A DNA stretch of 18,504 bases from a candidate division WOR-3 bacterium (lineage in GTDB: Bacteria > Hydrothermota > Hydrothermia > B15-G9 > WFZT01), in contig JALUEE010000016.1 in assembly GCA_027053075.1 (NCBI GenBank), positions 1-18,504 on the forward strand, read 5' to 3'. Made by a program: the position numbers and the translations under genes. Under the pieces are notes generated by a model. It saw nothing but the letters and a program-made list of their open reading frames with translations. It ran no database searches and was not told where the DNA came from. Positions within the stretch are counted from its first letter, which is position 1, and each line of letters starts with the position of its first letter. Shown here piece after piece: positions 4,101 to 18,290 of this stretch.

Positions 4101-4161
4101 ATTTTAAACCATACACACATTCAGCCTGAAGAGAGCTCGTCCGAAAATTACCCCCTTTCTA

Positions 4162-4196
4162 TCCTCTTCCCACGCACAAAGTGCGTGGGAGGAGGA
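4162..4196. repeat. REP-like G/C-rich palindrome (target of MITE copy 1)
   Basis: TCCTCTTCCCACGCAC-AAA-GTGCGTGGGAGGAGGA: 16-bp stem with one T/G pair. Its G-rich tail is interrupted by the MITE. Confidence 0.8.
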
Positions 4197-4203
4197 GTAA
4201 GGT

Positions 4204-4419
4204 CTGACGTCACCCACGAATTTCTGGAAAATAACACCTCATCCCTTACCACAACTACAAAAAGGTGTACTACGCTCAATATTTGAACACTCTCTTTATA
4301 CGGTATAAACGAATATATCCTTCCGGTAAAAATTGTTGATTTAGTGCGAAAAATTGAATTTCCCGCCCAGATTGCGTTGTATAAATATACATGAAAAGCA
4401 AAAACATGGGTGATGTCAG
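4204..4419 (+). mobile_element. 216-bp MITE, copy 1
   Basis: TIRs CTGACGTCACCCACG / CTGACATCACCCATG (13/15); perfect 10-bp TSD GGAGTAAGGT at 4194-4203 and 4420-4429; 215/216 identical to the reverse complement of 18075-18290. Confidence 0.93.
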
Positions 4420-4677
4420 GGAGTAAGGTGGGGGGCAAATTTTTCATTAAAAATTAAAGGTTTTGAAATTTTTCGAACAGGCTCGCCTGAAGAGATTACT
4501 TTTTAAGTTCTTTGTCCAAATTTAGATAAATCCGAAGATGCAACTACCTCACAATTCCCGATACTGGCAGCGACAGGCAGATTCCATCTCCATAATCATT
4601 CTGAAGGTCGAGAACATAGATATACTCACCTGAATTCGTTGTGTTTTGATTGAGGACAACATTAAAATCTACCCACA

Positions 4678-8382: not shown

Positions 8383-8458
8383 TCCCTCCCCGCTTGCTAA
8401 GCAAGTGGGGGAGGGTCTTGGGAGGGGGTATTCCGCTTGAAAATTAGAAATTTAGGAT
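8383..8458. repeat. REP-like palindrome plus conserved tail, homologous to 17972-18055
   Basis: CCCTCCCCGCTTGC-TAA-GCAAGTGGGGGAGGG followed by GGGAGGGGGTATTCCGCTTGAAAATTAGAAATTTAGGAT, compared with GGGAGGGGGCATTCCGCTTAAAAAATAAAAAAATTTAAGAT at 18015-18055. Confidence 0.8.
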
Positions 8459-8520: not shown

Positions 8521-8574
8521 GCCCCTCTCCTTTTATCCTCTCCCCGCAAGTATTTGTCCGGGGAGAGGAGGATT
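8521..8574. repeat. REP-like palindrome in the opposite orientation (unoccupied site)
   Basis: GCCCCTCTCC...TCCTCTCCCCG (8536-8546) pairs with CGGGGAGAGGA (8559-8569), then GGATT. Same layout as the reconstructed unit at 18059-18327. Confidence 0.75.
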
Positions 8575-8869
8575 CTGTGTTTGGATATTTTCATACAGGG
8601 TTCAAATTCCTTGACTTCCTGCCACAGATCAACCTGTGCATCTATGTCCTTAATAAAACTTCAAAAATAAAGGAAGTTGCTGGGACGGTCGAAATTCTTT
8701 CTAAGGCAAGTGTGTTTAAGAATTTACGCCCTCCCAACATGTGATAACTCAGAAATTGCGGGGGCGGCAGATACAGGTGGGAATTCCTTTAAAATTCTAA
8801 AAATTTTAGATTTATCGACAAAACCCTCCTAATACAAAAATTTAATTGAGTTTAAAGGGGGTATTTTTG

Positions 8870-17760: not shown

Positions 17761-17971
17761 GGGGTTAACGAGTTGCCAATGGGCAAGTTTATTCATTTCA
17801 CCTTTTACAAAATTTAGCAAAGAATTTATGCGGGGGGAGAAGGAAATTTTTGGTTTTGGACCGCAAAAATAAAATCCCACTCCGAAAGTCCAGGCTTTGT
17901 CTGATAGGTAGCTGTAGCCACTTTTTTCCCTACAGGCTCTGCCTGTGAGTCCACAATTACTCTAAAAAACC

Positions 17972-18055
17972 TCCCTCCCCCCCAGGCTTTGCCTGTGGGG
18001 GGGAGGGAATTAAAGGGAGGGGGCATTCCGCTTAAAAAATAAAAAAATTTAAGAT
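17972..18055. repeat. REP-like palindrome plus conserved tail, homologous to 8383-8458
   Basis: TCCCTCCCCCCCAGGC-TTT-GCCTGTGGGGGGGAGGGA followed by GGGAGGGGGCATTCCGCTT. Confidence 0.8.
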
Positions 18056-18074
18056 GTAGCCCTCACCCCACCCC

Positions 18075-18290
18075 CTGACATCACCCATGTTTTTGCTTTT
18101 CATGTATATTTATACAACGCAATCTGGGCGGGAAATTCAATTTTTCGCACTAAATCAACAATTTTTACCGGAAGGATATATTCGTTTATACCGTATAAAG
18201 AGAGTGTTCAAATATTGAGCGTAGTACACCTTTTTGTAGTCGTGGTAAGGGATGAGGTGTTATTTTCCAGAAATTCGTGGGTGACGTCAG
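18075..18290 (-). mobile_element. 216-bp MITE, copy 2 (inverted relative to copy 1)
   Basis: Same TIRs; perfect 10-bp TSD ACCCCACCCC at 18065-18074 and 18291-18300; one difference from copy 1 (18241 versus 4253). Confidence 0.93.

What the first reader, a model, noticed from the sequence alone, without database searches (positions are those of the whole stretch)
4124..4493. Nested structure: MITE inside a hairpin inside a second MITE with a 9-bp TSD
Seen: an outer element (4133-4484) has different inverted ends (GAGCTCGTCCGAAAA / GAGCCTGTTCGAAAA) and a 9-bp direct repeat GCCTGAAGA. Without the nested insert it is 126 bp and consists largely of the G/C palindrome plus AT-rich DNA. Inference: the REP-like hairpins are cargo of a TIR/TSD-type (DDE-mobilised) element. 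This differs from classical REPs, which are linked to HUH/RAYT transposases and lack TIRs. The result is a three-tier hierarchy: unseen autonomous IS, hairpin-carrying MITE, hairpin-targeting MITE.
Basis: partly seen in the sequence, partly recalled or inferred. Interest (0 to 1): 0.7.

Follow-up and report, generated by a model that had tools for sequence, protein, structure and literature searches.

The report
Nested MITEs, promoter-seeking IS5-type outer element
A small non-coding jumping element sits inside a folded DNA repeat carried by a second small jumping element; each has its own likely parent transposon, and the outer family lands almost base-exactly just upstream of promoter-like sequences, likely guided by RNA polymerase, a habit so far described in the papers found only for an unrelated transposase group.

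Summary
The nesting is real. A 216-bp inner MITE (10-bp duplication) sits in the hairpin arm of a 126-bp outer MITE (9-bp duplication). A sister genome has the outer element without the inner one at this site, and 15 of 25 sister-genome outer-family copies have clean empty sites here.

It is not one three-tier chain. The outer ends match a 1,061-bp IS5-like element related to ISAae1; the inner ends match an IS4-family element. The hairpin is a BoxC/triplex-type repeat, mostly found outside MITEs, so it is a passenger, and it is also the inner element's preferred target (16 of 23 copies).

The main result: the outer family inserts with TTGA at the far duplication base on one side only (51 of 74 sites), followed by a -10 box 17 bp on. 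The spacing holds in five other genomes and in ISAae1. This site itself lacks a clear promoter, and its clean empty allele was not found. Polymerase tethering is untested. The scan noted promoter targeting and the BoxC-DUF559 link before, on other DNA.

The parts
4124..4132 (+). Left copy of the outer 9-bp target-site duplication (GCCTGAAGA)
   Evidence: same site occupied in G004
4133..4484 (.). Outer MITE of the ISAae1-like IS5 group; 126 bp without the inner element and one copy of its duplication
4133..4149 (+). Outer terminal inverted repeat, matching the right end of the autonomous IS in G004:C168
4151..4203 (+). BoxC/triplex-like pyrimidine block and hairpin (subfamily E); perfect stem-loop at 4168-4190
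4194..4203 (+). Left copy of the inner 10-bp target-site duplication (GGAGTAAGGT), in the distal hairpin arm
4204..4419 (.). Inner 216-bp MITE of an IS4-family element; 13-bp inverted ends at 4204-4216 and 4407-4419; identical to two stand-alone copies elsewhere in the genome
4420..4429 (+). Right copy of the inner 10-bp duplication
4430..4467 (+). Rest of the outer MITE: G run and AT-rich tract
4468..4484 (-). Outer terminal inverted repeat, matching the left end of the autonomous IS (GAGCCTGTTCGAAAAAT)
4485..4493 (+). Right copy of the outer 9-bp duplication
18075..18290 (.). Second inner-family MITE in the window (99.5% identical, inverted), inserted in a BoxC-like repeat with no outer MITE around it; 10-bp duplication ACCCCACCCC

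Best explanation
The locus is a recent IS4-family MITE inside an older IS5-like MITE that carries a BoxC-type hairpin, and the two were likely moved independently by two different DDE transposases, the outer one likely steered to promoters by RNA polymerase. Shown: both elements are multicopy with duplications and empty alleles; each shares ends with a transposase-bearing IS; the outer family lies 8-11 bp upstream of -35/-10 pairs. Inferred: (1) an ISAae1-like transposase cuts with one nick fixed inside the first bases of the -35 box and the other 9-10 bp upstream, in either orientation, probably by contact with sigma70 holoenzyme; (2) the ends of this IS came to bracket BoxC-like repeats more than once, giving hairpin-carrying MITEs that spread those subfamilies; (3) the IS4 transposase prefers the C-rich linker of BoxC-like repeats wherever they lie, so the outer MITE supplies landing sites; (4) at this site the outer insertion predates the split from G004 and the inner one followed.
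For: Autonomous outer partner: G004:C168:4933-5993, 1,061 bp, identical 15-bp ends, 10-bp duplication, 309-aa DDE protein, empty site in G000. Nearest named relative ISAae1, 38-40% identity, with similar ends and a 9-bp duplication. Two decayed copies in G000. Of 25 G004 elements, 15 have a clean empty site in G000, 3 are empty with other indels, 3 are shared, 4 have no orthologous pair. Inner partner: IS4-family halves on C85 and C40, joined without the interrupting IS630 in a contig of run X1; the MITE shares about 66 and 42 terminal bases with them. Inner-empty allele in G004. Nested copies occupy two slots, both orientations and several branches. Promoter register: TTGA on the left in 24, right in 28, both in 1 of 74 sites (P 1.4e-5); among the 51, T/A/T at -10 positions 1, 2, 6 with a 17-bp spacer in 39/38/38; -10 score >=5 in 43% against 5% of nearby TTGA controls (P 2e-19), and <=8% at other spacers. 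Five other genomes: 23 of 54 ends have a promoter starting at position 9-12, against 4 hits over the other 31 positions. ISAae1 itself: TTTACA-16-TATACT starting at the far duplication base. Orientation 8 vs 7.
Against: This site has no clear promoter at the family register (CTGAAT on the left; the consensus scan found 1 site, inside the inner MITE, against 2.3 expected); 23 of 74 sites lack TTGA. The clean empty allele here was not found: G004 is occupied, G001/G003 cannot be aligned, and four runs show only a 408-bp deletion allele. No paired ends in the other genomes showed a duplication, so anchoring to the duplication is shown only in G000, G004 and ISAae1. No intact outer transposase was found in G000. 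The outer protein scores below the IS5 model cut-off (104 of 140 bits). 7 of 23 inner copies are not in BoxC-like repeats. Promoters are predicted only, with matrices recalled from memory. No evidence bears directly on transposase-polymerase contact.
Confidence: 0.78

Rival explanations
1. Same anatomy, but the outer transposase reads the target DNA itself (TTGAC plus bendable AT-rich DNA). Promoters are hit because they hold that motif, and selection keeps the harmless insertions; RNA polymerase plays no part.
For: TTGAC in 27 and TTGACA in 18 of 51 sites; a weaker T-GA trace on the opposite side at some sites, this one included. No contact data exist.
Against: The -10 signal peaks only at a 16-18 bp spacer and far exceeds nearby TTGA controls. 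The motif is one-sided and independent of element orientation, which fits a bound asymmetric complex better than a symmetric transposase dimer (inference).
Confidence: 0.25
2. The hairpin was not captured by IS ends; BoxC-like repeats are independently mobile (candidate partner: a DUF559 nuclease) and inserted into pre-existing small MITEs.
For: The one DUF559 gene in G000 is flanked by such repeats; 20 of 31 DUF559 loci have one within 200 bp, against 0.04 expected per locus. Outer ends enclose several different interiors, and one 47-bp two-end element exists.
Against: Subfamily E lies at a fixed position next to one end and is rarely free of ends. DUF559 was not found in G004, which has the repeats (89% complete). 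No hairpin-only insertion with a clean empty site was recognised among the rows seen of 34 indel events in 440 kb. Direction cannot be settled from these data.
Confidence: 0.25
3. The 350-bp composite (outer plus inner) transposes as one unit, so the nested copies descend from one or two nesting events.
For: C29 and C50 share slot, orientation and 98.6% inner identity; one G004 composite has a fully empty site in G000 (L048).
Against: For this locus it is excluded: G004 has the outer element without the inner, and the inner copy is identical to two stand-alone copies. The nine nested copies use two slots, both orientations, and pairwise identities of 87-100%.
Confidence: 0.15
4. One reading: one unseen autonomous IS heads a three-tier hierarchy, and MITE carriage is how these REP-like hairpins spread in general.
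For: Subfamilies E, C and D are enriched next to inward-facing ends (33/40, 22/46, 28/49); no RAYT found.
Against: Two unrelated transposases; subfamilies A and B are not tied to the ends; most inner copies lie outside outer MITEs (17 of 23 by strict pairing).
Confidence: 0.07

Closest known systems
ISAae1 (annotated 'IS5-like element', Aquifex aeolicus plasmid ece1, NC_001880.1)
   Same: Transposase 38-40% identical; similar ends; 9-bp duplication; a -35/-10 pair starting at the far duplication base.
   Different: No paper holding the name was found; its target preference and MITEs are not described in what I could search.
TnGBS / ISLre2 (p-MULT 3) and ISKra4 group (p-MULT 4), Guerillot et al. 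2014, PMC3942029 (passages read)
   Same: DDE elements inserting at a fixed distance upstream of sigmaA promoters; symmetric ends give both orientations; polymerase contact proposed.
   Different: Those are Mutator-like transposases inserting 15-17 bp upstream of -35. This one is IS5-like with a YREK-type motif and its end lies 8-11 bp from -35.
BoxC / PIT / TM(ECO) intrastrand triplex repeat, Holder et al. 2015, PMC4666352 (passages read)
   Same: Pyrimidine block plus hairpin plus G-rich block; the genome has 33 matches to the TM(ECO) pattern with a 3-7 nt loop, 6 with the published 3-6.
   Different: The hairpin here is a longer variant that does not match the TM(ECO) consensus. Holder et al. 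found no mobility genes near TM(ECO); here three subfamilies ride in a MITE family with empty alleles.
Coxiella QMITE2 targeted by IS1111; pneumococcal BOX/RUP/SPRITE nesting (PMC10969869, PMC3049150; passages read)
   Same: A MITE holding a REP-like palindrome that another element targets; small repeats inserted into one another.
   Different: Here the invader is an IS4-family DDE MITE with a 10-bp duplication, and the target is the C-rich linker, not a GTAG REP.
MITEAba12 / ISAba12 (PMC6382973; passages read)
   Same: MITE of similar size with a 9-bp duplication and ends shared with a co-resident IS.
   Different: Different ends; AT-rich targets with no sequence trend reported; no hairpin passenger.
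REP / RAYT systems (PMC3733652; passages read)
   Same: Many intergenic GC-rich palindromes; some units begin with a GTAG-containing tag.
   Different: No Y1 transposase found; mobility shown here uses TIRs and duplications.

Membership tests
MITE (outer) | Short, non-coding, terminal inverted repeats, multicopy | tested here: met
MITE (outer) | Target-site duplication and empty alleles | tested here: met
   Family level: 15 of 25 clean empty sites. Not found for this site.
MITE (outer) | Ends shared with an autonomous IS | tested here: met
   17-18 terminal bases at each end, interior unrelated at the ends compared
MITE (outer and inner) | Mobilisation in trans by the partner transposase | not testable with these tools
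   needs an experiment
IS5 family (outer partner) | DDE transposase matching an IS5 model | tested here: inconclusive
   Best model NF033579, E 7e-30, 104 bits, cut-off 140; ISAae1 also scores below it, 97 bits. D112, D188, E246 invariant in 36 relatives.
IS5 family, IS903-type subgroup | About 1 kb, 9-bp duplication, GGC-starting ends (recalled) | tested here: inconclusive
   1,061 bp and 9-10 bp fit; ends start GAG; PF13737 26.3 bits, cut-off 28.1. Not filed to this subgroup.
IS4 family (inner partner) | Transposase matching an IS4 model, with YREK motif | tested here: met
   Both halves best match NF033591 (86 and 52 bits as separate pieces, cut-off 152 for a whole protein); Y-x2-R-x3-E-x6-K visible
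IS4 family (inner) | Short inverted ends and 9-13 bp duplication (recalled) | tested here: met
   13-bp ends; 10-12 bp duplication in 20 of 23 copies
BoxC / TM(ECO) | Published consensus CCCTCNCCC-N3-6-GGGNGAGGG-N3-GGGNGAGGG | tested here: not met
   The hairpin at this site departs from it; other subfamilies in the genome match. BoxC-like, not filed as BoxC.
BoxC / TM(ECO) | Intrastrand triplex formation | not testable with these tools
   Only a hairpin fold was computed: -43.3 kcal/mol, z -9.6, for the G004 copy
REP / RAYT | Associated Y1 (HUH) transposase | tested here: not met
   PF01797 not found in G000, 95% complete
p-MULT 3/4 promoter-targeting elements | Mutator-like transposase | tested here: not met
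   Best family matches are IS5 and DDE_Tnp_1, although the top fold match is the IS256-type ISCth4, TM about 0.45
p-MULT 3/4 promoter-targeting elements | Insertion at a fixed distance upstream of sigma70/sigmaA promoters | tested here: met
   distance differs (8-11 vs 15-17 bp)

The most novel reading that the evidence does not exclude
An IS5-like transposase clade spread over at least four bacterial groups has independently evolved docking on sigma70 RNA polymerase holoenzyme, nicking inside the -35 box; its MITEs carry BoxC/triplex repeats to promoter edges, giving these long-orphaned repeats a DDE route of spread and seeding targets for an IS4 element that reads the triplex linker.
Probability: 0.4. 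Interest if true: 0.72.

Novelty: new variant of a known kind. Interest (0 to 1): 0.52.

Why it matters
Nesting of small repeats is already described and would score low alone. Two things lift it. First, promoter-anchored insertion in prokaryotes is reported, in the papers found, only for Mutator-like transposases; a compact 309-aa IS5-like enzyme with a sharper, closer spacing would be a second origin, easy to test, and a possible tool for mapping promoters or integrating without breaking genes. Second, how BoxC/triplex repeats spread was left open by Holder et al. 2015; here some subfamilies ride in a MITE family with empty alleles, a concrete if partial answer.

Tried and rejected
IS1182 as outer partner: DUF772 not found in G000; PF13751 gave one unrelated fragment in 5 genomes. 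The five DDE_Tnp_1 hits in G000 (by inspection three IS1634-like, one IS1380-like, one IS256 plus fragment) lack these ends. Metagenome scan with the long inner end gave one chance match in a coding sequence. Single-protein scan of genome contigs and alignment scan of viral contigs found no relatives. Empty allele at this site: not found. No RNA holder listed. No Rfam match in the window. Fold search shows only a generic DDE/RNase H fold. Gene-direction test is weak: a gene head follows the TTGA side in 22 of 31 and the other side in 16 of 31. My BoxC pattern missed E. coli ycjD. The recalled precedent of IS186 inserting in BoxC could not be checked: the search listed one unrelated paper. The profile search gave 846 relatives without genomic context.

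Full report
Observation. The coordinates, both pairs of ends, the 9-bp outer duplication and the 126-bp arithmetic are correct. The inner element is 4204-4419 with its own 10-bp duplication. It lies in the distal G-rich arm, not the loop, of a hairpin whose perfect stem-loop is 4168-4190. The locus is between two divergent genes.

Outer family. Ends matching GAGCYYGTTCGAAAA at <=1 mismatch occur 127 times, against 1 after shuffling. Of 95 candidate end pairs, many of them non-cognate, 48 have a 9- or 10-bp duplication with <=2 mismatches; among the 34 pairs of 93-128 bp, 29 do (null 0.6%). Exact ends occur in 3 of 12 genomes of the order: 51 in G000, 71 in G004, 1 in G009. For 25 G004 elements with duplications in the 40 stretches fetched, G000 has a clean single-copy empty site in 15, an empty site with other indels in 3, the same element in 3, and no orthologous pair in 4. 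The partner IS is G004:C168:4933-5993: 1,061 bp, identical 15-bp ends, 10-bp duplication, 309-aa protein, empty site in G000. It matches DDE_Tnp_1 and best the IS5 model NF033579, below cut-off; its nearest named relative is ISAae1. G000 holds only two decayed, internally deleted copies. The short MITE shares 17-18 terminal bases with each IS end.

Inner family. There are 23 full copies of 214-216 bp, 20 with a 10-12 bp duplication; exact ends occur in 2 of 12 genomes of the order. Longer ends at contig breaks lead to an IS4-family transposase in two halves, each cut by an IS630-like element. A contig of run X1, possibly the source sample, joins the halves without it. The MITE aligns with about 66 and 42 terminal bases of the IS. 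Sixteen of 23 copies lie in BoxC-like repeats against 2.3% of random sites; most use the C-rich linker 16-20 bp from the hairpin centre, in several subfamilies. Six of 23 are inside an outer element by strict pairing.

Order of events here. G004 has the outer element at the orthologous site without the inner one. The inner copy is identical to two stand-alone copies. Nine nested copies from the two genomes use two slots, both orientations and different branches (most branches weakly supported). So nesting is repeated, independent targeting; composite movement remains possible for C29/C50. The clean outer-empty allele was not found: G001 and G003 have a short gap between the same two genes that cannot be aligned, and of four runs laid, two show a joint skipping 4136-4543, which keeps the first bases of the end and removes 50 further bases, so it looks like a deletion.

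The hairpin. The genome has 527 strong GC hairpins (291 against 2 after shuffling in contigs under 40 kb). I sorted 247 into six subfamilies by motif; 280 stayed unclassified. They resemble BoxC/TM(ECO) (PMC4666352, passages); 33 sites match that pattern with a 3-7 nt loop. An inward-facing end within 220 bp is seen for E 33/40, D 28/49, C 22/46, F 5/16, but A 7/37 and B 12/55 with similar outward counts. The single DUF559 gene is flanked by A, B and F repeats, and 20 of 31 DUF559 loci examined (the 30 best-scoring loci returned from the 53 positive genomes, plus E. coli ycjD, which missed) have such a repeat within 200 bp. MITEs with related ends in two other genomes lack hairpins (0 of 6). 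The hairpin is therefore a passenger of separate origin.

Promoter anchoring. In 74 non-redundant sites from G000 and G004, TTGA begins at the far base of the duplication on the left in 24, right in 28, both in 1 (P 1.4e-5; background 0.7%). In those 51, a TAnnnT follows at a 17-bp spacer (39, 38, 38 of 51); the score exceeds genome-wide and local TTGA controls (P 3e-26, 2e-19) and falls at other spacers. Without preselecting, 40 of 125 G000 ends have a promoter starting at position 9-11, against 10 hits over the 31 positions outside 9-12. In five other genomes, three reached through records titled Thermotogaceae, Thermotoga and Deltaproteobacteria, 23 of 54 ends have one at 9-12 against 4 elsewhere. 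About half is the ceiling expected if only one side faces a promoter. ISAae1 shows the same register. Orientation is free (8 vs 7). Against: 23 of 74 sites lack TTGA, this site among them; no duplication was seen in paired ends of the other genomes; the scoring matrices were recalled; related genomes are not independent.

Mechanism. Shown: structure, copy number, empty alleles, shared ends, target statistics. Inferred: trans-mobilisation; one nick fixed between the first two bases of -35, because both 9- and 10-bp duplications end there; guidance by sigma70 holoenzyme, because a second hexamer at promoter spacing predicts the site.

Literature. Promoter-upstream insertion is described for p-MULT 3/4 at 15-17 bp (PMC3942029, passages). 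Searches for ISAae1 (0 papers), TnGBS with IS5 (1 unrelated listing), ISLre2, nested MITEs, DUF559, BoxC and MITEAba12 listed nothing describing this for IS5-like elements. Nesting and a palindrome-bearing MITE as another element's target have precedents (PMC3049150, PMC10969869; passages). PMC3733652, PMC6382973 and PMC2267715 were seen as passages. Family tables of duplication lengths and IS186/BoxC are recalled.

Earlier scan notes. After my own I found that the scan had noted promoter-edge landing in this genome and three others and the BoxC-DUF559 link in 122 notes. These are not independent support.

Verdict. Real; first reading partly right. The nesting is a by-product of two target preferences. 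The promoter-anchored IS5-like clade is a new variant of a known kind. Interest 0.52.

Noticed in passing
window 8385-8450, 8530-8575, 17965-18075: BoxC-like hairpin modules with no outer-MITE ends noted; the one near 18065 is the target of the second inner MITE.
   Followed up: partly
L002:1824-1943 (G004:C177) vs window 4151-4435: The orthologous hairpins differ in their outer arms, and the G004 copy is a near-perfect long palindrome, suggesting arm-to-arm conversion or template switching.
   Followed up: no
window 4136-4543: A 408-bp deletion allele in runs X2 and X3 (loose-end hint in X10) removes the element and 50 further bases while keeping its first bases.
   Followed up: partly
G000:C40:264-574: An outer MITE whose hairpin is missing between the two inner target slots, with an inner MITE in its place and mismatched flanks; likely an inner-element-mediated deletion.
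   Followed up: partly
G000:C44:31213-31857 and C67:10366-10793: Two outer-family elements in tandem separated by one copy of the duplication: reuse of one target.
   Followed up: no
L070, L071 (G000:C85:1-903, C40:798-2290): IS4 transposase halves each joined to an IS630-like element at a TA; on C40 the far side continues into an outer-type end, so the contig may be rearranged or misjoined.
   Followed up: partly
L021 (G000:C26:16550-17018): DUF559 (YcjD-like) nuclease gene bracketed by several BoxC-like repeats; found in 1 of 12 genomes of the order.
   Followed up: yes
L130:850-950: In the record titled Thermotogaceae, the IS end abuts a perfect TTGACA-17-TATAAT directly upstream of a tRNA-like sequence.
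   Followed up: partly
L181, L185 (G103): Elements with a predicted promoter on both sides and no duplication; either rearrangements between copies or assembly misjoins.
   Followed up: no
L003/L009 (G009:C180:3-126): One hairpin-type outer MITE, 87-94% identical, at a contig end in a genome of another family: horizontal spread or binning error.
   Followed up: no
window 4494-4677: About 180 bp between the element and the next gene that has no counterpart in G001/G003, where the two genes are only about 45 bp apart.
   Followed up: no
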